A stretch of DNA of 64,000 nt from an uncultured Candidatus Saccharibacteria bacterium (GCA_965231155.1 OZ246418.1:110850-174849), one strand, 5' to 3'; shown: positions 36,687-50,803, numbered from the stretch's first letter. The notes: generated from the sequence alone by a model not told the origin. Numbers and translations: made by a program.

Positions 36687-38357
36687 CTAGACAACCTCCG
36701 CCTGATAGCACGCTTCGCAATAGACAATCTCTGGACGATCGGGGGCGTAGTTGGTCTTTATTTCTTTACTGCATTTTCCACAGGCACGACTATGCAGGGT
36801 AAAGTTCCCTCGACGTTTGATGCGATTCATATGTCGGCAGCTAAAGCACCGCCGAGGAATTGGAAGTAGAGCTTTTTTATATATATCAAACTCGGCCTGA
36901 GTGAGACGGTAGTTTCTCTCGCAATCAATACAGGCAAAGATTTCTTTCAAAATATCCTCATCGACGTCCTGAATACGATCAGGAATCTTTTCTGACTTCA
37001 TCGTTTCCTGTCCTTTGGTCATTGGTAATTCGTCTTCCCATCGAAACCCTTGACCAATAGCCTCTTCTTTCGTCAGCGACATATTGTCCTGACTGATTGA
37101 TTCATTATAGGCAAAGAAACTCAGCGCTGGTGGCAGGAAAGATCCATATATCCCCTTCTCTTTCAACTCTCTCACAATCTGTTCGCGAATCTTTTTGTAC
37201 TCTTCCTCGGAATACTTTTTATTGAGAACCGCATAGCTGGCATTCTTCAAACCATCGCACCCGAAACAATTATTATTCCCTCCATTCATCGCAAGAGAGT
37301 ACTCAATGTCATGAGAAGTTTCCACCCACCACGAACCGATAACCCGCTGACTAGAACCCGCACCGACACATTCGATCATTAACTCGGCCTTGCGCCCGTG
37401 CCCTAAGATATCGTAAGAGTCCTTCGCATATTTCGCGGAGAAGGCGTTCTTTAAATTCTCCGAAAACGCTACCTCAAAACAATCGTGACAGTTCTTCGAT
37501 TCAGCAACATAATCCCCTGAGACATCGACAGATTTGAAGTTGTTGTTCTCTCGACGAGGGAATTTCAAAGTAAATACCTTGAACTCCTCCTCGAACTTTT
37601 TTGTCTTTTCGTAACTCCCCACAATTTCCGATACTCGTCTTTTCCACTCATCTTTATCAAGTTGTTCATTTAAAAAACAAAATGATTTATTGCGAAGATT
37701 CACACAGCCGAAACAGTTTGTGCAGTTGGCACAGTTCAAGAGAAACCAGGAGTTAAGACAGTCGCTCACGTTTTGACCCCAGGCTACCCCTGCGCACCGA
37801 TCTAGATTCACTCCTTCGTATGATCGTTCGGACGCATCGGCGTAGTAGGTGTCAACGGTATCCCGACTACTCGACAATCCCCGAGAATACATGCAGTTCT
37901 CATTTTTTGGACTGGAGTTGAAAATTAAATAACAATCTTTGTTATTACCTGCAAAGTTGGTGTACTCGCTATTCACATTCATCCCCATCGCTGCACTACT
38001 ATATAAAGCAGCCTTAGGAACCTTGAGTGCTAATTCTTTCAGCTGATCAAAGAATGGGCGACTTGAATCATACTCTATTCCGTGGCTCATCGGATCCCAC
38101 TTATCTGAAGCCCAACAATCATTACAGTACACAATATAAGGCGACTTCGGATTATACATCGTGATAATGGACCGATTACATAATGCACATATTCGTTTAT
38201 AGAGGGTTGATTCGTTGCGGTACACTGCTCGTCGTTTAAACCGACAGTCTGGGCAAAAAGGAGGCTCCTGGACACCTAGTTTGGCGTAGAATCCTCTATC
38301 TTCGTCGGTTATCTCAAACTCGTTTTTGCAAACCCGGCAGATTTTCATACCCTGCAT
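36687..38357 (-). CDS. Cysteine-rich multi-zinc-ribbon family protein, array paralog P1.
   Basis: N-terminal CRVCKNEF.I.DED..FY.K...PPFCPDCR..RR.VYRNE..LYKRICALC...YCNDCWASDKWDP, then YDSSRPFFDQ. Core repeats NCTNCFGCVNLRNKSFCFLNEQ and NNCFGCDGLKNASYAVLNKKYSEEEY. The C-terminal CIDCERNYRL...PRRCFSCR...CGKCSKEIKTNYAPDRPEIVYCEACY mirrors the N-terminus. No signal peptide or transmembrane segment. Confidence 0.8.
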   Translation of the reverse strand: MQGMKICRVCKNEFEITDEDRGFYAKLGVQEPPFCPDCRFKRRAVYRNESTLYKRICALCNRSIITMYNPKSPYIVYCNDCWASDKWDPMSHGIEYDSSRPFFDQLKELALKVPKAALYSSAAMGMNVNSEYTNFAGNNKDCYLIFNSSPKNENCMYSRGLSSSRDTVDTYYADASERSYEGVNLDRCAGVAWGQNVSDCLNSWFLLNCANCTNCFGCVNLRNKSFCFLNEQLDKDEWKRRVSEIVGSYEKTKKFEEEFKVFTLKFPRRENNNFKSVDVSGDYVAESKNCHDCFEVAFSENLKNAFSAKYAKDSYDILGHGRKAELMIECVGAGSSQRVIGSWWVETSHDIEYSLAMNGGNNNCFGCDGLKNASYAVLNKKYSEEEYKKIREQIVRELKEKGIYGSFLPPALSFFAYNESISQDNMSLTKEEAIGQGFRWEDELPMTKGQETMKSEKIPDRIQDVDEDILKEIFACIDCERNYRLTQAEFDIYKKALLPIPRRCFSCRHMNRIKRRGNFTLHSRACGKCSKEIKTNYAPDRPEIVYCEACYQAEVV

Positions 38358-38386
38358 TATACCCCTTGAAAGATGGGAACATCAAA

Positions 38387-40135
38387 TTAGATGATTTCGC
38401 TTTGGTAGCACTGCTCGCAGTACACCACCTCTGAGCCATCGGGGGTGTAGGTGGTTTCGAACTCATTTGGACATACTCCTTCTGGATGGTGTGAATGGGA
38501 GGCGGTGTTTTGGTGTACTTTGTAATCGCAGTTACACTTTTGATGATAAAGGAAAGGCAGGTTCACCGCTCGAAAACGCCGGAGATGACGACACTCAGGG
38601 CATTCCCGAGGGAGAGCAAGGCCAAATCGCTTCAAGAATTCCAGCTCTTTCTGAATAATGCGGAACGGGCGAGAACAGGTCATACAACCAATGATTTCGT
38701 TGATAATATCGTCTTTTGTTTCAACAACATCGTCTGGAAGATCGTGAGCTTGGAGGGTCGGCTCTCGTTTTGGTTTTTCTAATGGACGCCAGGCAAAACC
38801 ACTAGCCTCAGCAGTTTCTGGAGTTAATGGAAAGTAGTTGTTAGCGATTGTCTCGTTATAAGCGAAAGGAGATATCTCGATAGGGAAAAATTCGCCATAG
38901 CGATACTCCCTTCCCTTTTTGTCGACATAGGGCATTTCGTTCATGTGGGCGATGATCTTTGGAATCATTGCGTCGTACTCTTCTTCAGTGTATTGCTTGT
39001 TTAAGATGCAGTTCGCTTTGCTCCGTAAACCAATACAACCAAAGATATTATTGTTATTGTGACAGTTAACCCCATACTGCACATTGTTCCCTGTCCAAAG
39101 AACGACACCGAAGAGGAGTCGGGAAGCCTGAAGCCCGCTATCGACAAGTTCATACATGAGTTCGGCATGCTCACCAACGCCATATCCGTCATAGGTATCG
39201 GTCATGCCCCAACCCCCGTTCATTACAAACTTACAGTCCTTGTTGTTATTCCACAAATCAAACGCATAGAAACAGTTCGCGGTATGCTCGAGATTATTTC
39301 CTGTAACGTTTTGACAGTTCACCAGATTAGCAAACCGACGAAGCGCTTTCTTTTTTACTTCATTTTTGAATCTATCTTTAAACTTCTCTAGGGCAACATA
39401 ACTTCCAAGATTAAACTCCTTGATTTTATTGAAATACTCCTCCTTCGAATATGGCTCGTTGAAAATATAATACTGCTTGTTCCGTAAGCCAGAACAGCCG
39501 AAACAATTTGTGCAACCTCGGCAGTCATACAAAAAATAGCTATCGGTACAGGAGTCACAATTTTCTGAGAAGAAAGTGGAGTAGAGCTTACTTGAAGCAA
39601 CATCCTCGTAGCAAATTTCCGATTCGCCAATCGCAAAAACATCCATACAATCTTTGGAACCATTGCATCTTGAGGAGTAGGTCACATTTTCACTCCGCCA
39701 ACAAGCCGAAGAAAGATAGACGTCCTTGGTCTGACCGACATGATTCGAATAAGTCGTGTTGACCGCTTCACCATAGAATAAAGCGGGCATAGGAACGGTT
39801 TTCATGAGTTCTTGAAACTGAGTGAAGAATGGCTTAGAAAAGTCATAATCGCGACCGTAGTCTATGGCATCCCAGTTATCCGCCCACCAGGCATCACGGT
39901 CATAGACACGAACGCCGGACTCTTGAGAGAAACAGGACAAGACCTCCTTCCCCGTGGCTTCACAAGTGCGACGATGGAGACTTCTCTCGTTGCGATAGGC
40001 AAATCGCCGCTGCATCCGACAGTTGGGACAAAAGGTTGGCGGTGGAACTTCTATTTTTTTATAGAAATCAAAATCCTCCGAGGCAATCGTGAAGTCTTTT
40101 TTACAGTTCTGGCAGATTCTCTCTCCCTGGTTCAT
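38387..40135 (-). CDS. Cysteine-rich multi-zinc-ribbon family protein, array paralog P2 (His-insert subtype).
   Basis: CQNCKKDFTIASEDFDFYKKIEVPPPTFCPNCRMQRRFAYRNERSL...WWADNWD...DYDFSKPFF; GCTNCFGCSGLRNKQYYIFNEPYSKEEY; IFGCIGLRSKANCILNKQYTEEEY. The C-terminus is CMTCSRPFRIIQKELEFL...PRECPECR...SHSHHPEGVCPNEFETTYTPDGSEVVYCEQCY. Confidence 0.8.
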   Translation of the reverse strand: MNQGERICQNCKKDFTIASEDFDFYKKIEVPPPTFCPNCRMQRRFAYRNERSLHRRTCEATGKEVLSCFSQESGVRVYDRDAWWADNWDAIDYGRDYDFSKPFFTQFQELMKTVPMPALFYGEAVNTTYSNHVGQTKDVYLSSACWRSENVTYSSRCNGSKDCMDVFAIGESEICYEDVASSKLYSTFFSENCDSCTDSYFLYDCRGCTNCFGCSGLRNKQYYIFNEPYSKEEYFNKIKEFNLGSYVALEKFKDRFKNEVKKKALRRFANLVNCQNVTGNNLEHTANCFYAFDLWNNNKDCKFVMNGGWGMTDTYDGYGVGEHAELMYELVDSGLQASRLLFGVVLWTGNNVQYGVNCHNNNNIFGCIGLRSKANCILNKQYTEEEYDAMIPKIIAHMNEMPYVDKKGREYRYGEFFPIEISPFAYNETIANNYFPLTPETAEASGFAWRPLEKPKREPTLQAHDLPDDVVETKDDIINEIIGCMTCSRPFRIIQKELEFLKRFGLALPRECPECRHLRRFRAVNLPFLYHQKCNCDYKVHQNTASHSHHPEGVCPNEFETTYTPDGSEVVYCEQCYQSEII

Positions 40136-41868
40136 GCGAATTCTTTAATATAACATCCCCGACAGAGAAGCGGGTTAACTTCTTTATTTTTTATCGATGT
40201 TTCAAATCCCGTCTGGCACTGCGAACATTTCACAGTGATGGTGGTCAGATTCATGGCCCACTCAACCATCTTCTCTCTCACCCGACAAAAAGGACAATTC
40301 CGTGGCAAGGGGAATTTTAGATTTTTAAGCAAATCAAATTCTTGCTTGATGATTCTAAACGCGCGCCCACAACTCAGACAACCGATCTTCTCCTCAATAA
40401 TCTTTTCATCTACATCACGAATATGATCAGGTAGGTCTTCTGCTTTTACGGTAACTTCGTAAGCAGCCTCCGCATCTTCACGCCACCTTAATCCTTTATT
40501 AAGGACCTCTTCTTTAGACATAGGGAAGAACACACTGGCCAAAGAATCGTTATATGGCAACGGACTCATCTCCATCGGGAAAAACTCACCATATTTATAT
40601 ACTCTCCCCTGGGCATCAGTATATGGCATCTCGTCCATATGTTTTTTTATTTTCCGCACAAGATCCTTAAACTCCTCCTCAGAATACTCTTTGTTCAAAA
40701 CACAGTTCCTGACTCGTCGAGCTCCCACACACCCAAAATGATTCTTCGCCGTCCACGATCCGTTTGTATACTCTGCGTTAATAGTCTCGAGCCCCGTATC
40801 TTTTATGAATTGGGAGTCCGAACAACCCTGGCCAGTAATATTTCCCTCATATAAAAGATCGAGCGGTCCCGCCGAACCAGATATGTCATAGCTATTCGTC
40901 TGTGGACTAGAAAGATTCATAAACATAAATTTACAGTCCTCTGCGCCAATTACTTCGTAACACTGATTGCAGTTCTTTGACCCAAAAATATAGTTCCCCG
41001 TACAATTCTGAGTTGTATCTTCATAATGAGCTTTTACAATCTGTGTCGCCCAGTGTTTTTCTGCGTCCTCTTTGGCTTGTAGATATCCCTGATAGGAACC
41101 AAGATCATACTTTTTTATAGCGTCTAAATATTCATCCTTGGTCAGTTGTTGGTTGAAAAACACGTACTGCTTATTTTTCAAGTTCGCCGAACCAAAACAA
41201 TTCTGGCAGTTTTTTGAATCACGCAAAAAATAACAATCCATAGACTCCTCTACCTGCCCACGACATCCAGCACTCTTACTTACTTTATACGCATTCATCA
41301 TATCGTACGATTGATTAGTCGCGTACGATAAAGAACAATTCAAAAGATCAGCCGAATAGAGCACAAAAAAACCGTAAGCGCAATTTTCGTTTTGCATCGA
41401 TTCAAAAAGAAGATAGCAGTTCTTTAGATTGAGAGCATGGTTATTATACGGAGATGTATCCAAAGATTCAGTGCCAAGAGAGAGTGCCTGGAGAGGAGCT
41501 TGATGAAGCAACTCGTCGTACTGCTCAAAAAATGGGCGCGAGAAATCATAGTCGCGACCATAGTCTCGTGGATCCCACTCATCAGAAAACCAACACTTGG
41601 AACAATAAATTGTGTACTCAGAGTTAGAAGCATACATCGAGATAATGTCTTTATGACATAAATCACAGGTTCTCTTATAGAGTTTTACGATATTAAAAAG
41701 CGCTAAACGACGCTGAAAACGACACCGCGGACAGAACGTCGGTGGAGGTACGCTAATCTTTTTATAAAATTCAAAATCCTCCGACTCAATCGCGAACTGC
41801 GTTTTGCAATTTTGACACTGTTTAATTTCTGAGTTCATACTATATTCTGCTGATAACAACTCTCGCAC
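40132..41868 (-). CDS. Cysteine-rich multi-zinc-ribbon family protein, array paralog P3. The likely true start is the internal ATG at 41838 (MNSEIKQCQNCK), which abuts the P4 stop codon.
   Basis: CQNCKTQFAIESEDFEFYKKISVPPPTFCPRCRFQRRLA...LYKRTCDLCHKDIISMY...YCSKCWFSDEWDP..DYDFSRPFFEQ; C-terminal CLSCGRAFRIIKQEFDLL...PRNCPFCR...CSQCQ...CRGCY. Confidence 0.8.
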   Translation of the reverse strand: MRELLSAEYSMNSEIKQCQNCKTQFAIESEDFEFYKKISVPPPTFCPRCRFQRRLALFNIVKLYKRTCDLCHKDIISMYASNSEYTIYCSKCWFSDEWDPRDYGRDYDFSRPFFEQYDELLHQAPLQALSLGTESLDTSPYNNHALNLKNCYLLFESMQNENCAYGFFVLYSADLLNCSLSYATNQSYDMMNAYKVSKSAGCRGQVEESMDCYFLRDSKNCQNCFGSANLKNKQYVFFNQQLTKDEYLDAIKKYDLGSYQGYLQAKEDAEKHWATQIVKAHYEDTTQNCTGNYIFGSKNCNQCYEVIGAEDCKFMFMNLSSPQTNSYDISGSAGPLDLLYEGNITGQGCSDSQFIKDTGLETINAEYTNGSWTAKNHFGCVGARRVRNCVLNKEYSEEEFKDLVRKIKKHMDEMPYTDAQGRVYKYGEFFPMEMSPLPYNDSLASVFFPMSKEEVLNKGLRWREDAEAAYEVTVKAEDLPDHIRDVDEKIIEEKIGCLSCGRAFRIIKQEFDLLKNLKFPLPRNCPFCRVREKMVEWAMNLTTITVKCSQCQTGFETSIKNKEVNPLLCRGCYIKEFA

Positions 41869-43649
41869 GCAATTTTTTTATACTCCCATTCTAGTGGGTA
41901 GTAGGCCTGAATATCTTTTCCGCAATATGTACAGGCATATGGATATGCCGTAATAACTGAAACCCGATTCACCCGATTTAATGTTCGACGATCTGGATGT
42001 AGGCGTGGCAATGGGATAGAGTGCTGACGATAGAAAGCCAACTCGTGAGGTGCAATATTATATCGATAGCCCGCCTCAGGACAGACAAGCGCTTCTGAAG
42101 TTATCCCGTCATCAACTTCAGAAATAGTGTCGGGCAAACTGCTTGTAGCTTTTCCCTCGAGATTCATATCGCTATTCTCCTCCCAGTAAGCACCCAGCGA
42201 TACAATCTTCTCCCGAGTCAAGGGGAAGAAAATGTTGGCCTGAGTGACATTATATCCACTGTAAGCCATATCATATGGCAGAAACTTTCCATATGATCCA
42301 TCTTTTTTCATGTTCTCGATGATTTCCGCTCGCAATTTTTCGAACTCCTCTTTTGTATACTGTTTGTTTAAAATGGCGTACTTTTTCTTCTTCAAACCAA
42401 CACACCCAAAACAGTATTCACAATCGATACAAAGATCAAGATACTCCGAATAACGGCAATACTGACACCAAACAGAGTATTTCATTTCATAACCTCCAAC
42501 AGTATCAGCGGTATTACCCGATCGCTCCATCTCCCATGAACCCGTAATATCAATAACATCTTTCATTTTCAATCCGCGCATAACGTTATAGCAGTTTTCT
42601 GAATCTTCCCAATAAAACGCATTTACACACCGATTACAATTCGTTAAGTAATTACCGACTGATTGCTCTGTTTTTACATTGAAGTTTTCTCGATGCACAG
42701 CTTTGTCTTGGACATATCTTTCCCATTCCTTCTTTAAATTTTGAACTGCTTTCCAAGAACCAAATCGGTATTCGTCCAGTTTCTTCTGGTACTCTTCCTT
42801 GGAATACTGCTGGTTTAAAATGCAGTACTGTTTGTTCCGTAGATTCCAAGACATAAAACAGTTCTGGACATTTCGACAGTCGAAAAGAAACATACTATCA
42901 ATCGCGTTTCGACAGTTAAAGGAGTAGCGCAAATTAAAGCAGTTAAAACAGTAGGTGCAGTCATATGATCGCTCCGTATCGTAGCAGTAAGTAATGTCAA
43001 AGGAATCTTTAACCCGAACCATTCGATACCCATAACTCACCTCTTCACAATGTGTCATGGAACGCGACAAGTAGCAATTTTTACATTCCCAGACATCGTC
43101 ACACCAGTCACAACTAACGTTATTTTCTCCTGTTTGATGAGGGCGAGGAACTTTCTCCTGCAGTTCTTTAAGTTGATCCAAAAAGGGACGACTGGAATCG
43201 TAGTCCATAGATGCTGGCTCCCAATCATCGGAAAACCATTCTTTCGAAGTGTAAATGGGATAACGAGTCTTCGACGGCAAAACCGTAATCAGATTTTTTC
43301 CGCTTAAATCAGATACTCCTTTGCGAAATTTCCCAAAAATCCAAAACGCTAACTGCTGTCTCGAGCGGCAAGCAAAACACTGATGAGCTAGTTCGACACC
43401 AATCATCTCATACATTCCCAGCTCATCCTTAGTTATCGTGAAAGACCCTCCGCAATCGGTACAACTTTTCGTGAGAGGTTCCATATTACACTGTTTCCGC
43501 CTGATAACACTGTTCGCAATACAAAATCTCCGGCCTCCCTGGTTCGTAGCTTGTCCTAAATTCATTCGAACATACTCCTTCGCCATGAGCGTGGGTAACG
43601 GCATTTTGGTAGTCGATCCCAGATCCTGGATTTCGTCCCTGCTTGCCAC
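41835..43649 (-). CDS. Cysteine-rich family protein, array paralog P4. It is the most divergent or degenerate member, and its likely true start is the internal ATG at 43484 (MEPLTKSCTDCGG).
   Basis: The first 55 codons of the ORF-track model overlap the P5 C-terminus in another frame and lack family motifs. From M56 the protein follows the family pattern (SCTDCGGSFTITKDELGMYE...HQCFACRSRQQLAFW...WFSDDWEP...DYDSSRPFLDQ; NCFMSWNLRNKQYCILNQQYSKEEY; CEYCFGCVGLKKKKYAILNKQYTKEEF). The C-terminal CPxCR is replaced by LHPDRR. Confidence 0.7.
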   Translation of the reverse strand: MASRDEIQDLGSTTKMPLPTLMAKEYVRMNLGQATNQGGRRFCIANSVIRRKQCNMEPLTKSCTDCGGSFTITKDELGMYEMIGVELAHQCFACRSRQQLAFWIFGKFRKGVSDLSGKNLITVLPSKTRYPIYTSKEWFSDDWEPASMDYDSSRPFLDQLKELQEKVPRPHQTGENNVSCDWCDDVWECKNCYLSRSMTHCEEVSYGYRMVRVKDSFDITYCYDTERSYDCTYCFNCFNLRYSFNCRNAIDSMFLFDCRNVQNCFMSWNLRNKQYCILNQQYSKEEYQKKLDEYRFGSWKAVQNLKKEWERYVQDKAVHRENFNVKTEQSVGNYLTNCNRCVNAFYWEDSENCYNVMRGLKMKDVIDITGSWEMERSGNTADTVGGYEMKYSVWCQYCRYSEYLDLCIDCEYCFGCVGLKKKKYAILNKQYTKEEFEKLRAEIIENMKKDGSYGKFLPYDMAYSGYNVTQANIFFPLTREKIVSLGAYWEENSDMNLEGKATSSLPDTISEVDDGITSEALVCPEAGYRYNIAPHELAFYRQHSIPLPRLHPDRRTLNRVNRVSVITAYPYACTYCGKDIQAYYPLEWEYKKIACESCYQQNIV

Positions 43650-45252
43650 TACACATACACTTTCCTGGCCAGAGCTTCGGAGGATTCACGAATTTGAAGC
43701 GTTCCATATAACGACAGTTGGGACACATTCGTGGCAAAGGTAAATCAATTCTTCGGAGGAAATCCAGCTCTGCCTGAATGATCCGATAAGCCTTCTTGCA
43801 GGAACCGCACTGAACGAGTTCTTGGAGAATTGAATCGGGAACTTCTTTGATATCATCAGGAAGGTCAGCAATTGTTTTGGTGGTCTGATACTCTTTTTCT
43901 TCGACGTCTCTCCAGGCATATCCCCGAGCGAGAGCTTCATCCTTAGTCAGCGGGAAAAAATCCTGAGCCATCGTGTCGTTGTACGCAAAGGGAGAAAAAT
44001 CTGTGGGGAAAAACTCACCGTAACGATAGGTCCTCCCCTGCTTATCGGTGAAAGGCAGTTCGTTCATCTGAGCGATAATTTTTTCTCGCAAAGCGAAGTA
44101 CTCCTCCTTGGAATACTGTTTGTTCAAAATACAGTACTGTTTTTTATTTAAACTGACACAACCAAAAAGATTTTCTGAACCACGACAAAATATTGAGTAC
44201 TCCTGATTCTGACCTGAATTCCAACACTCCCAACAGAACTTCAGACGACTCACCCCAAAACCACAAGTCAACGACTCATACATTTCTGAAGCTCCCATGC
44301 CAAAGTTACTAAAGTCATATGAATCACTAATCGGTGGCTCCAGAAATTGCGAGTAAGCCAGGTTCTGACCTTCGTGAATAGAGTAACAATCTTTTAAATT
44401 TTTTGAACGTTCGATATGTTCACCAGTCGAATTCTGAACCTGAATGGCTAGCGTGTATCGCATCGGATGCTTGGCCCAAAAAGCGTGGGCCTTTTCTCTA
44501 TATTCAACGACCGTCTTCCACGAACCTAGGTTCAGATCGTCCATATACTTTTTATATTCTTCTTTAGAATATTGCTGATTGAAAATATGGTACGACTTAT
44601 TGCGAAGATTGACACAACCAAAACAGTTCGTACAACCCATTAAGTTTCGAGAAAACCAAATGTCAGTAGACTCTTCAATATTCACTGAATAAAAGATACG
44701 GTATCCTTCGTCGGCCATATAGTTGTCGTATGAAAGTTCGGTATGTCGAGCCTCGTAGAGATCGAAAGAATCTTTAAGGTTGTATCCGCTCACAATGTAC
44801 GCGGAGTTTTCACTGTCGTTACCATTAAAATAAAGATAGCAGTTCTTCAAACCTCCAGCTTGCTCGCAATACTCTGAGTTAACCATATTTAAAGTGCTCT
44901 TCGCAGGCCAAGGCACTGTATAGAGCAGCTCTTTATACTGGTCAAAAAATGGCCGAGAAAAATCATAATCTCGACCATAGCTCATCGCATCCCACTTATC
45001 TGACCACCAATCGTCAAGGTGGTATATGGTAGCTGGTACAGTATTAGGATAACCGGAAAAAATATCCTTATTGTTTAAACCCTCTTTTCGCTTAAAAAGG
45101 AACCGTTCGTTCCGCCAAGTGAGACGGCGAATAAGGCGACACTCCGGACACCACGTAGGTGGTGGCACACTAATTTTTTTATAAAAATCGAAATCTGCCT
45201 CTTCAATTAAGAAATTCTGCTTGCAGGACTGGCACGATCTCATTTCGGTCAT
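43486..45252 (-). CDS. Cysteine-rich multi-zinc-ribbon family protein, array paralog P5 (His-insert subtype).
   Basis: SCQSCKQNFLIEEADFDFYKKISVPPPTWCPECRLIRRLTWRNERFL...WWSDKWDAMSYGRDYDFSRPFFDQ; GCTNCFGCVNLRNKSYHIFNQQYSKEEY; LFGCVSLNKKQYCILNKQYSKEEY; C-terminal CGSCKKAYRIIQAELDFL...PRMCPNCR...THAHGEGVCSNEFRTSYEPGRPEILYCEQCY. Confidence 0.8.
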   Translation of the reverse strand: MTEMRSCQSCKQNFLIEEADFDFYKKISVPPPTWCPECRLIRRLTWRNERFLFKRKEGLNNKDIFSGYPNTVPATIYHLDDWWSDKWDAMSYGRDYDFSRPFFDQYKELLYTVPWPAKSTLNMVNSEYCEQAGGLKNCYLYFNGNDSENSAYIVSGYNLKDSFDLYEARHTELSYDNYMADEGYRIFYSVNIEESTDIWFSRNLMGCTNCFGCVNLRNKSYHIFNQQYSKEEYKKYMDDLNLGSWKTVVEYREKAHAFWAKHPMRYTLAIQVQNSTGEHIERSKNLKDCYSIHEGQNLAYSQFLEPPISDSYDFSNFGMGASEMYESLTCGFGVSRLKFCWECWNSGQNQEYSIFCRGSENLFGCVSLNKKQYCILNKQYSKEEYFALREKIIAQMNELPFTDKQGRTYRYGEFFPTDFSPFAYNDTMAQDFFPLTKDEALARGYAWRDVEEKEYQTTKTIADLPDDIKEVPDSILQELVQCGSCKKAYRIIQAELDFLRRIDLPLPRMCPNCRYMERFKFVNPPKLWPGKCMCSGKQGRNPGSGIDYQNAVTHAHGEGVCSNEFRTSYEPGRPEILYCEQCYQAETV

Positions 45253-45328
45253 ATGTGCCTATTTTCTCCCTTTTTAGAGGTTTAGGCAACTTCTTCTTAA
45301 TAACCCCAACTTTAGTAGAACAACTAGC

Positions 45329-47107
45329 CTATACAACCTCAACCTGATAGCACTCTTCACAGTAAATAATTTCCGATCGATCGAGAGCATATCCCGTCTC
45401 AAAATAATGAGGACAGGGAACTAAACCATGCGAGTGAGTAGCACTATTTCTGTACACTCCTCCATCCGAAGAAACTCCTGCACACTGACACTGCCTTTCA
45501 TAAACTTTTATTGAGTTACGCTGAGCAATTCGAGTATAGTGTCGACAGTTCACGCAGAGTCGAGGGAGGGCCAGATTAAACTTCTTATAAAACTGAAGCT
45601 CTTGCGGAATCACTCGAAAAGCCCCCGTGCAACCATGGCTGCAACTTCCCTCGTGTACGCATCCAATAACTTGTTGCAAAACAGTCTCCTCTACATCTTT
45701 TATCTGATCAGGGATCTGAGTGTAAGGAAGGGTTACTGTATGTTGCTTTTTCTCTGAATTTTTCCACTGGAAACAAGCTTTCTTTGATTGTTCTTCAGTC
45801 AAAGGGAAATGTTCATAAGCCAAACTCTCGTTATAAGCATATGTGGAGAGCTCTACTGGGAAAAACTCTCCATATCGATAGACTCGGCCAGCTTGGTCAG
45901 TGAAAGGCACCTCATCCATCTGTTTCTTGATCTTTGAAATGAGTGCTTCATATTCCTCTTTAGCGTACTGCTTATTCAAGATGCAATACTGTTTATTCCG
46001 AAGACCAATACAGCCAAACAGATTAGAGGAAGTCATGCAGTACTCCGAATATTCCAGATCGTTTACGTTAGTGTAACACTGCAAACAAAACTTAAGATTA
46101 TTTGCGCCTGCACCAGTCATTGCAATCTCGTAGCTAAAAGTGGCATTCTCGCCCCACACACTGTAGTCATAACACTCCTTACTCGAAGGCACCTGCATAT
46201 ACTGACAGTACTTCAAATTTTCACAGTCGTTTACAAGATAAGACTTCTTTACGTTTCTCGAGTTGGAAATATAAGAACCACCGACATCAGCATTTTTTGT
46301 TCCTTCGAGATATTTGGTAGGAAATTTTAGCCAAAAATCTTGAGCTTTTCTTCGAATTTGTTCTAACTCTGTATGTGACCCCAAGTTGAATGATTTTAAC
46401 TTCTCTTCGTACTCCTCCTTCGAGTACTGTTCATTAAAAATACAGTAACTCTTCCCTCTGAGATTGACACACCCAAAACAGTTCGTACAACCTCTGAGAT
46501 TCTTCGAAAAATAGACATCGATACAATCGACACACTGACTGGAAAAAAGAGTTCTATTGCAATTTGTGAGCCAGAAGTTCTCGTAACACTGTTCTGACTT
46601 CTGAATATGCGAGTTGTCTATACAATCTCGAGAGTAGTCAACTCCATTTCCATAAGCACAATCTTCGGTATAACTGGCGTTGAAGAGAAGATAACAATTT
46701 TTGAGAAAAGAAGCGTTATTAGAATACTCGCTATTCGTTACAGTAATAATAGACTTGGCTGGACGAGGAACTTTTTTAGATAATTCCAGGTATTGTTCAA
46801 AAAATGGACGGGAAAAATCATAATCCTCACCATAAGTCATTGGATCCCATTCATCAGACCACCACTCCTCCTGAGTGTAGACTGGAAAATGGGCATCGGC
46901 GGGATAGGTTGAAAAAAGATCGGTGCCGGAAAATGAGCTGGTCCTCTTATAGAGAGCCCGCTCATTACGAAAAGCGAGGCGACGTTGAGCCCGACAGAGC
47001 CAACAAAAAGTCGGAGGTGGCACTTCCATCCGCTTATAGAAATCGAAATCCTCCGGTTCAATAATGAATGATTGCTTGCAGTTCTGACAGATCTTATTTT
47101 CGATCAT
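45329..47107 (-). CDS. Cysteine-rich multi-zinc-ribbon family protein, array paralog P6 (His-insert subtype).
   Basis: ICQNCKQSFIIEPEDFDFYKRMEVPPPTFCWLCRAQRRLAFRNERALYKR...WWSDEWDPMTYGEDYDFSRPFFEQ; GCTNCFGCVNLRGKSYCIFNEQYSKEEY; LFGCIGLRNKQYCILNKQYAKEEY; C-terminal ...PRLCVNCR...ATHSHGLVPCPHYFETGYALDRSEIIYCEECY. Confidence 0.8.
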   Translation of the reverse strand: MIENKICQNCKQSFIIEPEDFDFYKRMEVPPPTFCWLCRAQRRLAFRNERALYKRTSSFSGTDLFSTYPADAHFPVYTQEEWWSDEWDPMTYGEDYDFSRPFFEQYLELSKKVPRPAKSIITVTNSEYSNNASFLKNCYLLFNASYTEDCAYGNGVDYSRDCIDNSHIQKSEQCYENFWLTNCNRTLFSSQCVDCIDVYFSKNLRGCTNCFGCVNLRGKSYCIFNEQYSKEEYEEKLKSFNLGSHTELEQIRRKAQDFWLKFPTKYLEGTKNADVGGSYISNSRNVKKSYLVNDCENLKYCQYMQVPSSKECYDYSVWGENATFSYEIAMTGAGANNLKFCLQCYTNVNDLEYSEYCMTSSNLFGCIGLRNKQYCILNKQYAKEEYEALISKIKKQMDEVPFTDQAGRVYRYGEFFPVELSTYAYNESLAYEHFPLTEEQSKKACFQWKNSEKKQHTVTLPYTQIPDQIKDVEETVLQQVIGCVHEGSCSHGCTGAFRVIPQELQFYKKFNLALPRLCVNCRHYTRIAQRNSIKVYERQCQCAGVSSDGGVYRNSATHSHGLVPCPHYFETGYALDRSEIIYCEECYQVEVV

Positions 47108-48795
47108 ACAACTTCTTTGTTATAACATTCCTCGCAGTAGACAATTTCGGGCCGATCTGGAGCATAGGAGGTCTTAATATCTTTACTACACTTTGCACAT
47201 GTTCGATCGAATATTTTAATTGGATTCAGTTTGGCCACTCGACCACGATCGCGACACAATGGACACTGTCGCGGAACAGGAATGCTGAATCGACGATAGA
47301 AATCCAACTCCATCTGAATAATTTGGTAGTTCTTCCCACAAGACTCGCACTTCAAGATCCCCTGAAGAATCTCGTCTTTCACATCTTTAATATGATCAGG
47401 AACTACGACGGTAGCCTCCTTATACTCTCGTACGTCGGGATCGCGCCAGCTAAAACCTCTGCGTAGAGCCTCCTCCTTAGTCAGCGGGAAAAACTCATAC
47501 GCAAGTGACTCGTTATACTTCCAGGGACAGATATCAGTCGGGAAATACTCACCATAGCGATACTCCCTTCCGAGACTGTCTTTGTAGGGAACTTCAGCCA
47601 TCTGCTTTCTGATCTTCGGTACCAACTCCTCATACTCTTCTTTGGTGTACTGCTTATTTAAAATGCAGTAACTCCCCTTTCTGATTCCGAAACAACCAAA
47701 AAGGTTCTCTGAACCATGACAGCCGTACGAGTACTCCAAGTGATGACAGTTGTAATCCCAGAAGCCAAACCTAATATTATTAGCATTCAGACCGACCCAA
47801 GCAGAGTTATAAATCCACTCAGCATTCACGCCAAACTGAGTATAGTCATAAGCTTTTCTTGTCGGTCCAGACTTCAGAAGTTGACCAAAACGAACGTCTT
47901 CGGCATAACCAGCCATATACGAATCACGAACATTCTTGGCGTTGTAAATGTAATCCCCTGAAACGTTTTCGTTCTTTCTCCCATGAAATGCCTTTCGGGG
48001 ATATTTCAAGAAAAATTCATTCACTTTCTTCCTAAAGGTCTCTCGAGCTTGAAATGAACCAAGATTTAGTTCAGCCAACTGCCTCTCAAATTCTTCCTTA
48101 GAAACAGGCTGATTAAAGATCTGATAGCTCTGACCTCGAAGATTGATACATCCAATACAATTCGTACAGCCAACTAAGTTTTTAGAAAAATAGACATTAT
48201 GACACTCGTCGCAGTCTTCCGAGTAGAAAGCTTGATAGCATTTATTGCATGTTAAGAAATCATATGAAAGCTCATCGAAGTTTACATAGTTACCATCTAT
48301 ACAATCCTTCATGTCCGTCGCCGTATTTACATACGCGCAGTTCTCCGTGCCATCAATTCGGAAACATAGGTAGCAGTCTTTAAGTGTTGAGGCGGCGTTA
48401 CAGTACTCGCTCCGAATCATGCTGGAGTACTCAGTATAAAGAACGGGATGCGGTGTGGCTTTTAAAAGCTCGTCAAACTGCTCAAAAAAAGATCGTGAGA
48501 AATCGTAATCTCGTCCATAGGTCTTTGCGTCCCACTTATCAGACCACCAGATGTCTTGTCTATAGGTTTTATAAGGAGCATCGGGATGATAACTTGAAAT
48601 GACACTATCCCCCGTAAAATCACACTTTCGTTTATGGAGAAGGCGATAGCCACACCAAGAGAATCTCTGAAGCATACGACACTCTGGACACCAGGTTGGT
48701 GGAGGTACCTGCATCTGCTCATAGAACGAAAAATCGTCGGGTTCTATGGCGAATGATTTTTGACAACTCTGACAATGCCTTGTTTCCGTGTTCAT
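47104..48795 (-). CDS. Cysteine-rich multi-zinc-ribbon family protein, array paralog P7, first gene of the array.
   Basis: HCQSCQKSFAIEPDDFSFYEQMQVPPPTWCPECRMLQRF...WWSDKWDAKTYGRDYDFSRSFFEQ; GCTNCIGCINLRGQSYQIFNQPVSKEEF; LFGCFGIRKGSYCILNKQYTKEEY; C-terminal CESCGKNYQIIQMELDFYRRFSIPVPRQCPLCR...CAKCSKDIKTSYAPDRPEIVYCEECY. Its stop overlaps the P6 start in an ATGA. Confidence 0.8.
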   Translation of the reverse strand: MNTETRHCQSCQKSFAIEPDDFSFYEQMQVPPPTWCPECRMLQRFSWCGYRLLHKRKCDFTGDSVISSYHPDAPYKTYRQDIWWSDKWDAKTYGRDYDFSRSFFEQFDELLKATPHPVLYTEYSSMIRSEYCNAASTLKDCYLCFRIDGTENCAYVNTATDMKDCIDGNYVNFDELSYDFLTCNKCYQAFYSEDCDECHNVYFSKNLVGCTNCIGCINLRGQSYQIFNQPVSKEEFERQLAELNLGSFQARETFRKKVNEFFLKYPRKAFHGRKNENVSGDYIYNAKNVRDSYMAGYAEDVRFGQLLKSGPTRKAYDYTQFGVNAEWIYNSAWVGLNANNIRFGFWDYNCHHLEYSYGCHGSENLFGCFGIRKGSYCILNKQYTKEEYEELVPKIRKQMAEVPYKDSLGREYRYGEYFPTDICPWKYNESLAYEFFPLTKEEALRRGFSWRDPDVREYKEATVVVPDHIKDVKDEILQGILKCESCGKNYQIIQMELDFYRRFSIPVPRQCPLCRDRGRVAKLNPIKIFDRTCAKCSKDIKTSYAPDRPEIVYCEECYNKEVV

Positions 48796-48855
48796 TAAAA
48801 ACCATTATACCCCGAACTCCAAGAAACAAAAAAAGCCCTTCTTTAGAGCTTTTTC

Positions 48856-50305: not shown

Positions 50306-50803
50306 TTATAAGGCTTTTAGCTCTTTTAGGAATGCTTCAAATGCATCAAGTGCTTTCTCTGCCTCGTCAGGACCCACTTTGAAATCCGGCGAATGTACTA
50401 AGTTATTACGAAGACGGTGAGCACGCCACACCCCTTCTAAACTCTTCACCTCGTCCGAAGATAGTTGTCCGAGACGATCCGACATGTGTTCTCCTTCAAA
50501 ACCCATCTGCTTCAGGGTGTCATCAACAACCTTATCAGCCTCGATAACCGATAGAGTAATAGCTTCGTGAGTTCCCAACATAAATTTCTTGACCACTTTT
50601 TCCCAACGCTCCTGCATTATCTTTTCTGAAAGATTAATAGTTCTCTTTTTTGGCTCATTATCGGGATGAAGATTTGGACGATAGTGCCAGAACTTATGAA
50701 TGGCATAGGCGATCACGGCAATCAAAATAATGTCAAAAATAATAAAGAACCACTTCAAAAAATTGAAGTATCGTATCCAGAAATCAGGTTGCGAGAAAAA
50801 CAT
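50306..50803 (-). CDS. Hypothetical single-pass membrane protein with a cytoplasmic helical domain.
   Basis: 165 aa; N-terminal transmembrane helix (WFFIIFDIILIAVIAYAI), then a charged alpha-helical region. It lies 8 nt upstream of the ATPase gene. Confidence 0.45.
   Translation of the reverse strand: MFFSQPDFWIRYFNFLKWFFIIFDIILIAVIAYAIHKFWHYRPNLHPDNEPKKRTINLSEKIMQERWEKVVKKFMLGTHEAITLSVIEADKVVDDTLKQMGFEGEHMSDRLGQLSSDEVKSLEGVWRAHRLRNNLVHSPDFKVGPDEAEKALDAFEAFLKELKAL

What the first reader, a model, noticed from the sequence alone, without database searches (positions are those of the whole stretch)
36687..48795. Tandem array of seven diverged paralogs of an uncharacterised cysteine-rich multi-zinc-ribbon protein family
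Seven consecutive minus-strand genes (P7 to P1, 556-604 aa each, about 12.1 kb, roughly 19% of the window) are homologous over their whole length but strongly diverged. Every copy has an N-terminal CxxCK..F.I...DF.FYKK..VPPPT.CP.CR..RR.A.RNE..LYKR zinc ribbon, a W(W)SD.WD....YG.DYDFSRPFF.Q block, a Cys-rich core with two copies of the motif C.NCFGC..LRNK.Y.I.N.QYSKEEY, and a C-terminal ribbon ending in (I/V)VYCE.CY. Each protein carries roughly 30-40 cysteines arranged as CxxC pairs. None has a signal peptide or transmembrane helix, so these look like intracellular zinc-binding proteins. The hallmarks of the radical SAM CxxxCxxC motif, ferredoxins, transposases, or surface variable antigens are absent. 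I cannot place the family in any characterised group. A locally expanded, rapidly diverging, conserved-ends/variable-core family inside a housekeeping neighbourhood is the pattern seen for specificity-determining families (defence sensors, polymorphic effectors), but function is unknown.
Basis: seen in the sequence. Interest (0 to 1): 0.88.

Follow-up and report, generated by a model that had tools for sequence, protein, structure and literature searches.

The report
Zinc-finger-capped beta-solenoid paralog array
Seven intact neighbouring genes (plus an eighth elsewhere in the window) encode an old, very large but unnamed protein family of ultra-small Patescibacteria; each protein is a double beta-solenoid capped by zinc fingers, and the genes are usually kept beside a pair of orphan secretion-type motor ATPases, which suggests a partner for those motors.

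Summary
Seven co-directional, tightly packed, intact paralogs (549-592 aa, 29-47% identical) occupy 36687-48795(-). An eighth copy is cut by the window start.

Two AlphaFold models (pLDDT 89-90, pTM 0.90) and profile comparisons give the architecture:
- a treble-clef finger;
- a WSD block;
- two duplicated modules of 12-residue-coil beta-solenoid plus cap motif plus helix;
- an aromatic middle domain;
- two more fingers.

The "locally expanded, rapidly diverging" reading is not supported. The family has about 5,300 clusters at 50% identity. Every named record but one (a probable mislabel) is patescibacterial, mostly Parcubacteria/Paceibacteria. Arrays of up to 11 copies are common. No within-locus pair exceeds 60% identity. 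Window copies have closer orthologs in other lineages than paralogs at home.

Two paralogous TrwB/VirD4-like ATPases bracket the array, and such ATPases lie beside or inside family arrays in 34 of 81 loci. Some carry the family's C-terminal finger.

My best inference (about 0.4) is that these proteins are clients or adaptors of that ATPase machine. Function is untested.

The parts
36687..38357 (-). Copy 1 (556 aa; a gene caller elsewhere starts it at M4, giving 553 aa). It has the optional second N-terminal CxxC...CxxC finger and an exact C-terminal CxxC-x17-CxxC.
   Evidence: ORF. Family HMM score 610 over profile positions 3-585. CxxC positions. PF23477 and PF13451 hits are below threshold.
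38387..40135 (-). Copy 2 (582 aa). Long-insert variant of the last finger (CxC...H.H...C...CxxC).
   Evidence: (HMM score 785).
40132..41838 (-). Copy 3 (568 aa from the ATG at 41838; the ORF list extends it to a GTG at 41868). It overlaps copy 2 by 4 nt.
   Evidence: A gene caller on the identical contig also gives 568 aa.
41835..43484 (-). Copy 4 (549 aa from the ATG at 43484, one base after the copy 5 stop). It is a divergent but conserved subtype: the first C-terminal finger has lost 3 of its 4 Cys.
   Evidence: Orthologs with the same loss occur in 7 other genomes at 46-54% identity.
43486..45252 (-). Copy 5 (588 aa). Used as the reference for residue numbering and for the first structure model.
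   Evidence: exact match P0001, on an 808-kb contig. AF2 model with pLDDT 88.8 and pTM 0.90.
45329..47107 (-). Copy 6 (592 aa). It has the full Cys ladder in solenoid 1 and was used for the second structure model.
   Evidence: AF2 model with pLDDT 90.3 and pTM 0.90; solenoid 1 pLDDT is 88-99 with period-3 bridges. The 12-residue wrap is shown.
47104..48795 (-). Copy 7 (563 aa). It overlaps copy 6 by 4 nt and has an exact CxxC-x17-CxxC C-terminus.
   Evidence: (PF23477, 22.7 bits).
1..1566 (-). Copy 8. Its N-terminal ~522 residues are visible; the C-terminus runs off the window start. It is closest to copy 3 (47% identity).
   Evidence: Family HMM score 573 over profile positions 1-522. Sequence and identities.
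45103..45252 (-). Copy 5 residues 1-50: N-terminal treble-clef zinc finger (C7, C10, C35, C38). Basic, pI 9.4.
   Evidence: The four Cys are 98-99% conserved in 183 members. PF13451 is hit in 21 of 70 members, best E 8.5e-8. Homologous to the first C-terminal finger: hhalign 99.2%, E 2e-19. pI.
44893..45084 (-). Copy 5 residues 57-120: conserved WWSDxWD...YGRDYDFSRPFFxQ block with helices. In copies 1 and 3 an extra CxxC...CxxC finger lies in residues 57-81.
   Evidence: optional Cys in 46-66% of members. Secondary structure.
44467..44892 (-). Copy 5 residues 121-262: solenoid module 1. About 8 coils of exactly 12 residues, then the cap motif CTNCFGCVNLRNKSYHIFNQQYSKEEY, then helices.
   Evidence: 12-residue wrap, and Cys spacings that are multiples of 3. 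Period-3 bridges in the copy 6 model. Variability profile.
44053..44466 (-). Copy 5 residues 263-400: solenoid module 2, an internal duplicate of module 1, ending in NLFGCVSLNKKQYCILNKQYSKEEY plus a helix.
   Evidence: hhalign of module 1 against module 2: 99.9%, E 6.4e-37, 113 columns. pLDDT 84-98 in the copy 5 model.
43825..44052 (-). Copy 5 residues 401-476: conserved aromatic, acidic middle domain (YxYGEFFPxxxSPFAYNETxAQDFFPLTKEEA...GxxW).
   Evidence: Low column entropy at 401-440. Consensus. pI 4.45.
43687..43824 (-). Copy 5 residues 477-522: second treble-clef finger (C482, C485, C510, C513). Basic, pI 9.2.
   Evidence: Cys 91-98% conserved. Homologous to the N-terminal finger.
43489..43686 (-). 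Copy 5 residues 523-588: terminal finger of the CxxC-x17-CxxC (zf_Tbcl_2) type (C532, C561, C579, C582). It carries an inserted CxC/His-rich loop in copies 2, 5 and 6.
   Evidence: Cys 99-100% conserved. PF23477 is hit in 21 of 70 members, best E 1.1e-6. TIGR04272 hits are below threshold.
48856..50298 (-). ATPase-A: soluble TrwB/VirD4/HerA-like P-loop ATPase (480 aa) 60 nt upstream of copy 7. Candidate partner.
   Evidence: PF10412, PF02534, PF01935 and PF12696 hits. Walker A and B present, no TM segment. Same-family ATPases neighbour family genes in 34 of 81 loci.
34447..36177 (-). ATPase-B: paralogous TrwB/VirD4/HerA-like ATPase (576 aa; 44% identical to A) downstream of the array, with a Cys-free low-complexity tail. 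Candidate partner.
   Evidence: Orthologs in other genomes carry a PF23477 finger in the tail.
50820..52166 (-). DUF8128 membrane protein (448 aa, one N-terminal TM segment). Probable membrane anchor of the ATPase.
   Evidence: PF26449 on the identical contig. TM segment. Fused to the ATPase in L082 and L087 and in phrog_5156.
50306..50803 (-). 165-aa single-pass membrane protein between DUF8128 and ATPase-A.
   Evidence: TM segment. Homologs sit next to family loci in 5 loci. Same position in L086.

Best explanation
SHOWN.

The seven genes, plus an eighth at the window start, are intact members of one old and very large protein family that no source names. Every named record but one (a probable mislabel) is patescibacterial, mostly Parcubacteria/Paceibacteria.

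Each protein is soluble and acidic. Its order of parts is:
- a basic treble-clef zinc finger;
- a conserved WSD block;
- two tandemly duplicated modules, each a tight beta-solenoid of 12-residue coils lined with Cys/Ser and closed by a conserved (C.NC)FGC..LR.K.Y.I.N.QYSKEEY cap and a helix;
- an aromatic middle domain;
- a second copy of the basic finger;
- a terminal CxxC-x17-CxxC-type finger.

Sequence variation between paralogs lies mainly in the solenoid coils. The paralogs are ancient, separately conserved subtypes.

The genes sit in a tightly packed co-directional cluster with two paralogous soluble TrwB/VirD4-like ATPases and their DUF8128 membrane partner. That linkage recurs across lineages even though gene order is shuffled.

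INFERRED.

The proteins work with this orphan 'coupling-protein-like' ATPase machine as its clients. They would be either cargo it translocates or, somewhat more likely given their slow and orderly evolution, adaptors that bring different ligands to it. In this model the conserved zinc-finger ends dock on the common machinery or on a common ligand such as nucleic acid. The variable solenoid faces give each paralog its own specificity.

Some ATPase-B proteins carry the same terminal finger. This suggests that finger contacts a shared partner.
For: Family and integrity:
- establish the seven paralogs. Searches show three independent assemblies 100% identical to the window.
The exhaustive search found 5,275 50%-identity clusters at E <= 1e-3 and 2,235 at E <= 1e-30. 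The GTDB species genome scan confirmed 577 or more stretches, almost all labelled Patescibacteria.

Architecture:
- AF2 models reach pLDDT 88.8 and 90.3 with pTM 0.90.
- Solenoid 1 has a 12-residue period and Cys spacing in multiples of 3.
- hhalign shows the internal duplication (99.9%, E 6e-37) and the finger duplication (99.2%, E 2e-19).
- Pfam finger calls appear in 21 of 70 members each.
- The CxxC-x17-CxxC domain binds zinc experimentally (PMC12704099).

Ancient subtypes.

ATPase link:
- The ATPase is the top neighbour family, present in 34 of 81 loci. The next best neighbour family is in 11.
- ATPase genes are co-directional with family genes in 55 of 56 cases, usually 4-800 nt away or interleaved within the array. 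They occur in 25 of 40 loci with three or more copies, against 5 of 26 single-copy loci.
- The same DUF8128/ATPase-A, array, ATPase-B layout is seen in L086 and L087.
- A PF23477 finger resembling the family C-terminus sits in the tail of 8 of 30 type-B ATPases.
- Operon-like spacing of -4 to 76 nt.

Literature: Patescibacteria encode about two VirD4-like ATPases per genome (5,713 in 2,918 genomes). Only 148 are near virB4, and the authors say exaptation to another role cannot be ruled out (PMC12102498). On my rough estimate, chance adjacency would therefore be only a few percent.
Against: - No experiment or interaction prediction links the proteins to the ATPases.
- The 81 loci are the best-scoring relatives of copy 5 and are phylogenetically non-independent. 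Unrelated genes (trmD, comEC, secDF, dnaK/dnaJ) are also syntenic in subsets, so some of the linkage may be inherited gene order.
- More than half of the loci show no ATPase within reach. Many of these are short contigs, but L085 and L004 have 10-kb flanks and none.
- The eighth window copy has no ATPase neighbour.
- The ATPases occur far more widely in Patescibacteria than this family appears to, so they do not need it.
- The window's own ATPase-B lacks the shared finger.
- No canonical T4SS channel genes (VirB4 and others) were found among the window proteins scanned against Pfam.
- Basic zinc fingers would equally suit a free-standing nucleic-acid-binding role.
Confidence: 0.4

Rival explanations
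1. Free-standing intracellular nucleic-acid- or protein-binding scaffolds with no functional tie to the ATPases. The basic treble-clef fingers would bind DNA or RNA, or another protein, and the acidic solenoids would act as spacers, mimics or binding surfaces. Adjacency to the ATPases would be inherited synteny only.
For: - Two basic finger modules (pI 9.2-9.4) sit on an otherwise acidic protein, with no TM or signal segment.
- Treble-clef and CxxC-x17-CxxC fingers occur in many small nucleic-acid-associated or uncharacterised proteins, and phage 'zinc-ribbon domain' proteins match the fingers structurally.
- Long-flank loci lack an ATPase (L004, L085), and the isolated eighth copy has none.
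- Other housekeeping genes are co-syntenic.
Against: - ATPase adjacency survives extensive shuffling of array order and position: the ATPase is found upstream, downstream or inside arrays.
- The ATPase is three times more frequent than any other neighbour.
- Arrays are enriched for ATPases relative to single copies.
- A domain is shared with ATPase-B tails.
- No known nucleic-acid-binding family matches the protein as a whole.
Confidence: 0.27
2. Exported cargo. The proteins would be signal-peptide-less substrates pushed out by the membrane-anchored FtsK/VirD4-like ATPase. This would be analogous to T4SS effectors recognised by a coupling protein, or to T7SS substrates encoded beside EssC/EccC. 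Outside the cell they would act as solenoid adhesins or effectors on host cells of these episymbionts.
For: - The ATPase/DUF8128 membrane module lies directly upstream.
- The termini are conserved and the middle is variable.
- The best structural analogues of the core are extracellular solenoids: curli CsgA, trimeric autotransporter heads, phage appendages and insect antifreeze proteins whose 12-residue coils are held by Cys.
- One single-copy gene sits inside a type IV pilus cluster.
- In the two T4SS papers consulted, no substrate of the Patescibacteria T4SS/T4CP is named in the passages read.
Against: - The subtypes evolve slowly and in an orthologous pattern, with no recent duplications. 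This is unlike typical host-interaction effectors.
- Four cytoplasmic-type Zn(Cys)4 fingers per protein would need to be exported folded or be refolded.
- Ladder Cys are freely replaced by Ser in some paralogs, so disulfide dependence is unlikely.
- No channel components are encoded nearby.
Confidence: 0.18
3. One reading: a fast-evolving specificity family for conflict, meaning defence sensors or polymorphic effectors or toxins.
For: - The family is multi-copy with variable solenoid surfaces.
- HerA/FtsK-like ATPases do occur in some defence systems, and the flanking ATPases give weak hits to PADLOC mad8 and HerA models.
Against: - The family itself has no PADLOC hit.
- It is essentially absent from 2.9 million viral contigs.
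- There are no recent paralogs anywhere (maximum 60% identity in 217 pairs), and deep orthologous subtypes exist.
- The locus is vertically conserved among core genes and is not in a variable island.
- There is no variable C-terminal toxin domain, and no room for immunity genes.
Confidence: 0.05
4. Metal or redox proteins. The conserved core cysteines (CxxCxxC plus distant Cys) would hold an Fe-S cluster or extra zinc inside the solenoid, and the family would serve in metal storage, redox sensing or electron transfer.
For: - Core Cys at positions 207, 210, 213, 365 and 374 are 86-96% conserved.
- A CxxCxxC is present in most copies.
- Inward-facing positions recur every third residue in the copy 6 model.
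- Each protein has 25-34 Cys.
Against: - There is no canonical ferredoxin (CxxCxxCxxxC) or radical-SAM motif.
- Copies 3 and 4 and the copy-4-type orthologs have lost part of the CxxCxxC.
- Ladder Cys exchange with Ser, which points to a steric rather than a ligand role.
- This idea does not explain eight differentiated paralogs or the ATPase linkage.
Confidence: 0.1

Closest known systems
Pfam PF13451 (zf_Tbcl, 'probable treble clef domain') and PF23477 (zf_Tbcl_2) / TIGR04272 (CxxC-x17-CxxC domain)
   Same: The N-terminal and first C-terminal fingers match PF13451. The last finger matches PF23477 and TIGR04272. The ligand cysteines are 91-100% conserved. Copies 1, 3 and 7 have exactly CxxC-x17-CxxC. 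Two Methanosarcina mazei small proteins with this domain bind zinc (PMC12704099).
   Different: Those families are small stand-alone or accessory fingers of unknown function, and they cover only about 25% of these proteins. The window copies score below the Pfam gathering thresholds. Copies 2, 5 and 6 carry an inserted CxC/His-rich loop in the last finger. The copy-4 subtype has a finger without zinc ligands.
Tight Cys-stabilised beta-helix antifreeze proteins (Tenebrio molitor TmAFP, PDB 1ezg; spruce budworm CfAFP, 1m8n)
   Different: There is no significant sequence similarity. No TCT ice-binding ladder was looked for or seen in the solenoid wraps. There is no signal peptide. Ladder Cys are interchangeable with Ser, so disulfides are not required. 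The solenoid here is embedded between zinc fingers and duplicated. This is a structural analogue, not a homolog.
Other beta-solenoids: curli CsgA, LpxA/GlmU left-handed hexapeptide helices, pentapeptide-repeat proteins, trimeric autotransporter heads
   Different: The coil length here is 12 residues (4 x 3), not 18 (hexapeptide), 20 (pentapeptide) or about 19-23 (curli). The scores are low and the rmsd values high. There are no acyltransferase or carbonic anhydrase residues and no secretion signal.
Type IV coupling proteins (TrwB/VirD4/TraD) with their substrates and adaptors (for example TraD-TraM, or DotL with IcmS/IcmW/LvgA), and T7SS EssC/EccC with adjacent substrate arrays
   Same: This is a working analogy only. 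A membrane-tethered FtsK/HerA-superfamily ATPase is encoded next to multiple signal-less proteins that share conserved terminal modules. The ATPase tail sometimes carries the same module as the clients.
   Different: No VirB4 or channel genes, relaxase or WXG100-type proteins are nearby. The ATPase lacks its own TM segments and uses a separate or fused DUF8128 domain instead. Client status is untested. The family is unrelated in sequence to any known T4SS or T7SS substrate or adaptor.

Membership tests
PF13451 zf_Tbcl (treble-clef zinc finger) | Match to the Pfam model at or above the gathering score (24 bits) | tested here: inconclusive
   Window copies 1, 2 and 5 score 14-21 bits, below the cut-off, and copies 3, 4, 6 and 7 give no hit. 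Across 70 diverse family members, 21 match at E <= 0.01, with best E 8.5e-8. The domain type is right, but the window copies are divergent.
PF13451 zf_Tbcl (treble-clef zinc finger) | Two CxxC pairs about 25 residues apart acting as four zinc ligands | tested here: met
   C7, C10, C35 and C38 are 98-99% conserved and C482, C485, C510 and C513 are 91-98% conserved in 183 members. The two fingers are homologous (hhalign 99.2%). Zinc binding itself was not measured.
PF23477 zf_Tbcl_2 / TIGR04272 CxxC-x17-CxxC | CxxC-x17-CxxC spacing, and a match to the model | tested here: inconclusive
   The spacing is exact in copies 1, 3 and 7 and is x18 in copy 4. Copies 2, 5 and 6 have an inserted loop. PF23477 scores 22.1-22.7 bits against a cut-off of 27, and TIGR04272 scores 18-20 against 36. 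Of 70 members, 21 match PF23477, best E 1.1e-6.
Radical SAM enzymes | CxxxCxxC cluster-binding motif | tested here: not met
   The motif is absent from all eight copies. There is no Pfam hit.
4Fe-4S ferredoxins | CxxCxxCxxxC(P) motif | tested here: not met
   The motif is absent from all copies. Only a single CxxCxxC occurs in most.
Hexapeptide (LbH) and pentapeptide repeat solenoids | 6- or 5-residue sequence periodicity with 18- or 20-residue coils | tested here: not met
   The coil length is 12 residues with period-3 inward positions. There is no Pfam Hexapep or Pentapeptide hit. Structural matches are weak.
Insect beta-helix antifreeze proteins (TmAFP type) | Secreted 12-residue-coil beta-helix with a conserved intra-coil disulfide Cys pair and a TCT ice-binding face | tested here: not met
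Known anti-phage defence system components (PADLOC-DB) | Match to any PADLOC model | tested here: not met
   No hit for four representative copies at E <= 0.01.
Polymorphic toxins / effectors | Conserved N-terminal trafficking region, variable C-terminal toxin domain and an adjacent immunity gene | tested here: not met
   The C-terminus is the most conserved part. Intergenic gaps of -4 to 76 nt leave no room for immunity genes. There are no recent diversifying duplicates.
T4SS coupling-protein substrates or adaptors | Physical recognition by, or translocation dependent on, a VirD4/TrwB-type ATPase | not testable with these tools
   Only gene-neighbourhood and domain-sharing evidence is available.
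Pseudogene / decaying repeat array | Frameshifts, premature stops or assembly-dependent disruption | tested here: not met
   All seven are full-length against the family HMM. They are identical in three independent assemblies. The most divergent copy has conserved orthologs.

The most novel reading that the evidence does not exclude
The orphan VirD4/TrwB-like ATPases that most Patescibacteria encode away from any T4SS, together with DUF8128, form a previously unrecognised membrane translocation machine. This zinc-finger-tagged double-solenoid family would be its dedicated set of cargo or cargo-adaptor proteins. That would amount to a new ATPase-driven trafficking system specific to Parcubacteria/Paceibacteria, with the terminal CxxC-x17-CxxC finger acting as the recognition tag.
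Probability: 0.2. Interest if true: 0.85.

Novelty: new variant of a known kind. Interest (0 to 1): 0.62.

Why it matters
Patescibacteria have genomes of about 1 Mb and discard most biosynthesis genes. This organism nevertheless keeps at least eight 1.7-kb paralogs of one unnamed family, about 14 kb in total. Relatives keep up to 11 in a row, and the subtypes have been maintained separately across lineages whose orthologs are now only 50-60% identical. That is strong indirect evidence of an important function specific to this lineage.

The work adds three things:
- A concrete architecture: zinc-finger caps on a duplicated 12-residue-coil beta-solenoid.
- A family size of about 5,000 clusters at 50% identity.
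- A specific, testable partner: the VirD4-like ATPases that a 2025 survey found in thousands of Patescibacteria genomes, nearly all away from virB4, for which the authors said exaptation to another function cannot be ruled out.

If the link is real, it names the first candidate clients for those ATPases. If it is not, the family is still one of the larger uncharacterised protein families of the candidate phyla radiation, and its core deserves a domain model.

Tried and rejected
- **Family libraries on whole proteins** (Pfam, NCBIfam, PADLOC, PHROGs). Only the fingers match, and the core has no model.
- **Profile searches of PDB sequences** with two alignments. Nothing was significant. LIM-domain CRP at E 0.7 and TmAFP at E 1.8 are noise-level.
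- **The afdb50 library** was unavailable, so annotated AlphaFold-DB neighbours could not be examined.
- **Literature searches** on Parcubacteria or CPR cysteine-rich and zinc-ribbon families, on DUF8128 and on the Pfam/TIGRFAM identifiers. They found no description of this family. They did find a zinc-binding result for the CxxC-x17-CxxC domain and two T4SS papers.
- **Strain-level pN/pS.** This was impossible because the three other assemblies are 100% identical to the window. Ortholog dN/dS was not attempted because identities of 50-60% imply saturated synonymous sites.
- **Promoter and terminator scan**. Counts were no higher than in shuffled sequence. Only one hairpin, between ATPase-A and copy 7, is worth noting.
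- **Searching non-family ORFs of all loci with HMMs of the family's sub-domains**. There were no hits at E <= 0.01. The ATPase-B tail finger was detectable only in a targeted test.
- **Rejected readings:** radical SAM or ferredoxin (motifs absent), transposase or surface antigen (no matching domains, no signal peptide), pseudogene array (intact and reproducible), phage origin (one fragment in IMG/VR), and ComEC- or TrmD-linked function (this adjacency is seen only in close relatives and does not rank among the top neighbour families).

Full report
**1. The observation**

The ORF list shows seven consecutive minus-strand ORFs at exactly the stated coordinates, 36687-48795. They align end to end with 69 invariant columns and are 29-47% identical pairwise.

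Two ORFs are lengthened by upstream GTG codons. The conserved N-terminal finger, and ATGs that abut the preceding stop codons, place the real starts at 41838 (copy 3, 568 aa) and 43484 (copy 4, 549 aa). A gene caller on an identical contig agrees for copy 3.

Gaps between successive genes run from -4 to 76 nt. There is no hydrophobic segment (maximum Kyte-Doolittle 19-residue score below 1.2). The proteins are acidic, with pI 5.5-6.6. The CxxxCxxC and CxxCxxCxxxC motifs are absent.

A family HMM finds an eighth copy at the window start, at <1-1566(-), with its C-terminus cut off. Three assemblies from different sequencing runs are 100% identical to the window over 9-22 kb of the array. The copies are therefore intact and reproducible.

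**2. What the proteins are**

Pfam and NCBIfam recognise only the ends, and below threshold in this window: PF13451 (zf_Tbcl) at the N-terminus, and PF23477 (zf_Tbcl_2) or TIGR04272 (CxxC-x17-CxxC) at the C-terminus. Among 70 diverse relatives, 21 match each finger model (best E 8.5e-8 and 1.1e-6). Apart from the finger models, only four unrelated models give isolated weak hits, in one or two members each.

Two profiles searched against all PDB sequences give nothing significant.

AlphaFold2 with family alignments gives confident models for copy 5 (pLDDT 88.8, pTM 0.90) and copy 6 (pLDDT 90.3, pTM 0.90). The first solenoid is the weak part in copy 5 (pLDDT about 60) but very confident in copy 6 (88-99). 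The second solenoid shows the reverse. Each half is thus well modelled in at least one paralog.

**3. Anatomy** (copy 5 numbering)

- *Residues 1-50:* a basic (pI 9.4) treble-clef finger. C7, C10, C35 and C38 are 98-99% conserved in 183 members.
- *Residues 57-120:* the WSD...DYDFSRPFF block. Copies 1 and 3, and about half the family, have an extra CxxC...CxxC finger here.
- *Residues 121-262 and 263-400:* two modules that are internal duplicates of each other (hhalign 99.9%, E 6e-37). Each is a solenoid closed by the cap motif (C.NC)FGC..LR.K.Y.I.N.QYSKEEY and a helix.
- *Residues 401-476:* a conserved aromatic, acidic middle domain.
- *Residues 477-522:* a second basic finger, homologous to the first (hhalign 99.2%, E 2e-19).
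- *Residues 523-588:* the terminal finger. C532, C561, C579 and C582 are 99-100% conserved. The spacing is exactly CxxC-x17-CxxC in copies 1, 3 and 7. Copies 2, 5 and 6 carry a CxC/His-rich insertion.

Solenoid 1 wraps perfectly at 12 residues per coil, for about 8 coils. Across the family, its Cys-Cys spacings are almost exclusively multiples of three. The copy 6 model shows beta-bridges every third residue. I read this as four sides of three residues with small inward-facing residues. The ladder position is Cys in copies 6 and 7 but Ser in copy 5, which argues for a steric rather than a ligand or disulfide role.

Column entropy is lowest in the fingers, the two caps and residues 401-420. It is highest in the solenoid coils and residues 441-460.

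Two M. mazei proteins with the CxxC-x17-CxxC domain bind zinc by ICP-MS (PMC12704099). Zinc binding here is inferred from that result and from ligand conservation.

**4. Size, spread and age of the family**

Every name a source gives is 'hypothetical' or 'uncharacterized', and all named sources are Patescibacteria/Parcubacteria MAGs.
- The exhaustive HMM search of 1.84 billion cluster representatives finds 5,275 at E <= 1e-3, 3,799 at E <= 1e-10 and 2,235 at E <= 1e-30.
- The scan of one genome per GTDB species confirms 577 or more stretches. The labelled records include Nomura-, Staskawicz-, Giovannoni-, Jorgensen-, Lipton-, Sung- and Niyogibacteria, Paceibacteria and Minisyncoccia.
- Only one fragment turns up in 2.9 million viral contigs.

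Arrays are normal for this family. In the fetched loci, copy numbers range from 1 to 11 (L019 has 11; L007, L036 and L039 have 8).

The duplications are old:
- Each of the six window copies tested has closer relatives elsewhere (50-60%) than at home (38-47%).
- The 217 within-locus paralog pairs have a median identity of 41% and a maximum of 60%.
- Three to five window subtypes have reciprocal best hits in large arrays of other lineages, while gene order is shuffled.
- Copy 4's loss of three finger cysteines is shared by orthologs in seven other genomes. It is a maintained subtype, not decay.

This contradicts 'locally expanded, rapidly diverging'.

**5. Context**

The cluster reads, all on the minus strand with gaps of -20 to 76 nt: SecD, SecF, a sigma-r4/HARE-HTH protein, DUF8128, a 165-aa membrane protein, ATPase-A, copies 7 to 1, a cytidylyltransferase-like protein, ATPase-B, TrmD, ComEC.

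ATPase-A and ATPase-B are 44% identical. Both are soluble, have intact Walker A and B motifs, and match TrwB_AAD_bind, T4SS-DNA_transf, DUF87 and TraG-D_C. DUF8128 has one TM segment. It is fused to the ATPase in L082, L087 and phrog_5156.

An unbiased clustering of all ORFs within 6 kb of family genes in 81 loci ranks this ATPase first. It accounts for 54 ORFs in 34 loci. The next families are an ABC ATPase in 11 loci, DnaJ and DnaK in 10 each, and DUF8128 in 9.

The ATPase genes are co-directional with the family in 55 of 56 cases. They are typically 4-800 nt away or interleaved within the array. They are found with 25 of 40 arrays of three or more copies, against 5 of 26 single-copy loci.

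Two more distant genomes repeat the layout of DUF8128/ATPase-A, array, ATPase-B, TrmD, ComEC. In both, ATPase-B carries a PF23477 finger. A motif search finds the tail CxxCGKxxxVPFKPxxxRPVYCxxC in six more type-B ATPases, and it scores weakly against the family's own terminal-finger HMM. Compare the family C-terminus CxKCSKDIKTSYAPDRPEIVYCEECY.

[quoted passage not shown] With about two such genes per roughly 1-Mb genome, I estimate chance adjacency at a few percent (my inference).

Caveats:
- The loci are the best-scoring relatives and are not phylogenetically independent.
- Some long-flank loci have no ATPase. L004 sits between pilMNO and pilB/T/C, and L085 also has none.
- The eighth window copy has none either.

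**6. Mechanism**

The following are shown: the architecture, the ancient subtype structure and the recurrent linkage.

The rest is inferred. The conserved finger ends would be the common handle, for the ATPase machine or for a shared ligand. The variable solenoid faces would give each paralog its specificity. On this reading the family provides clients of the orphan coupling-protein-like ATPase. Adaptors seem somewhat more likely than exported cargo, because the subtypes evolve slowly and orthologously.

I put about 0.4 on the client model as a whole, and within it about 0.18 on export. The rivals are:
- free-standing nucleic-acid or protein-binding scaffolds (0.27);
- metal or redox proteins (0.10);
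- conflict or defence proteins (0.05), which have no PADLOC hit, no viral presence, no recent duplicates and no variable toxin end.

**7. Comparison and novelty**

The fingers belong to known but functionally blank finger families. The solenoid is a structural analogue of 12-residue-coil antifreeze helices, not a homolog. The ATPase pairing resembles coupling-protein/adaptor or T7SS ATPase/substrate arrangements only by analogy.

No Pfam model consistently matches the core, and none of the papers found in five full-text searches describes the family (the passages returned by keyword look-ups do not mention it).

I classify it as a new variant built from known kinds of parts. A system-level novelty, a new ATPase-client trafficking system, is not excluded; I put it at about 0.2.

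Noticed in passing
window 1-1566 (-): An eighth family copy, with its C-terminus cut by the window start. It lies 35 kb from the array among unrelated genes (DUF1801, ATP-grasp, an AddA-like helicase-nuclease). It is closest to copy 3 (47% identity).
   Followed up: partly
window 34447-36177 (-) and 48856-50298 (-): Two paralogous soluble TrwB/VirD4/HerA-like ATPases (44% identical, Walker A and B intact) bracket the array. Both strongly match phrog_5156, a PHROG family of unknown function whose 824-position profile spans a DUF8128-like N-terminal part and the ATPase part.
   Followed up: yes
L014, L023, L035, L048, L051, L064, L086 (16068-17960), L087 (15253-17421): Type-B ATPases in other genomes carry a CxxC-x17-CxxC finger in their tail that resembles the family's C-terminus. 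The L087 protein additionally has a NUDIX domain. The window's ATPase-B has a Cys-free low-complexity tail instead.
   Followed up: partly
window 50306-50803 (-) and 50820-52166 (-): A 165-aa single-pass membrane protein and a DUF8128 protein (one TM segment) precede ATPase-A. DUF8128 is fused to the ATPase in L082 and L087.
   Followed up: partly
window 31567-33817 (-): ComEC appears to be split into a Competence-domain gene (32417-33817) and a separate metallo-beta-lactamase gene (31567-32466). trmD overlaps the ComEC gene by 19 nt. The same order is seen in L086 and L087.
   Followed up: no
window 48828-48856 (-): A terminator-like hairpin with a 12-pair stem and a T-run lies in the 60-nt gap between ATPase-A and copy 7. 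It could separate or attenuate transcription of the array. The overall terminator count in the region is within about 1.6 sd of the shuffled mean.
   Followed up: no
L004 10001-11755: A single family gene sits between pilM/N/O and pilB/pilT/pilC of a type IV pilus cluster, with a small Fic-domain ORF just upstream.
   Followed up: no
window 41835-43484 (-); L065, L010, L079, L020, L027, L017, L086: The copy-4 subtype has a first C-terminal finger that has lost three of four cysteines (CPxTGW...LPRxHFDxRT) and a cap reading NCFMCW or NCFMSW. This is conserved in seven other genomes.
   Followed up: yes
window 55804-58869 (-): A 1021-aa protein with a peptidoglycan-binding domain and a dockerin type I domain. 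It is possibly a surface or host-interaction protein.
   Followed up: no
window 61264-62010 (-) and 4788-8156 (-): A Cas4-like PD-(D/E)XK nuclease and a 1122-aa UvrD-helicase/PD-(D/E)XK (AddA-like) protein. No CRISPR-associated RNA family was reported by the Rfam scan, which found only two tRNAs (Arg-CCT and Ala-GGC at 58979-59935).
   Followed up: no
L086 633-923: A 96-aa GIY-YIG ORF is inserted between the small membrane protein and ATPase-A. It may be a homing-endonuclease-like insertion.
   Followed up: no
L005-L084 record titles: Many TPA assemblies carrying this family are labelled 'uncultured Candidatus Saccharibacteria', and one (L068) is labelled 'Gammaproteobacteria'. These are probably pipeline labels or mis-binning and not true hosts. 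This was not verified.
   Followed up: no
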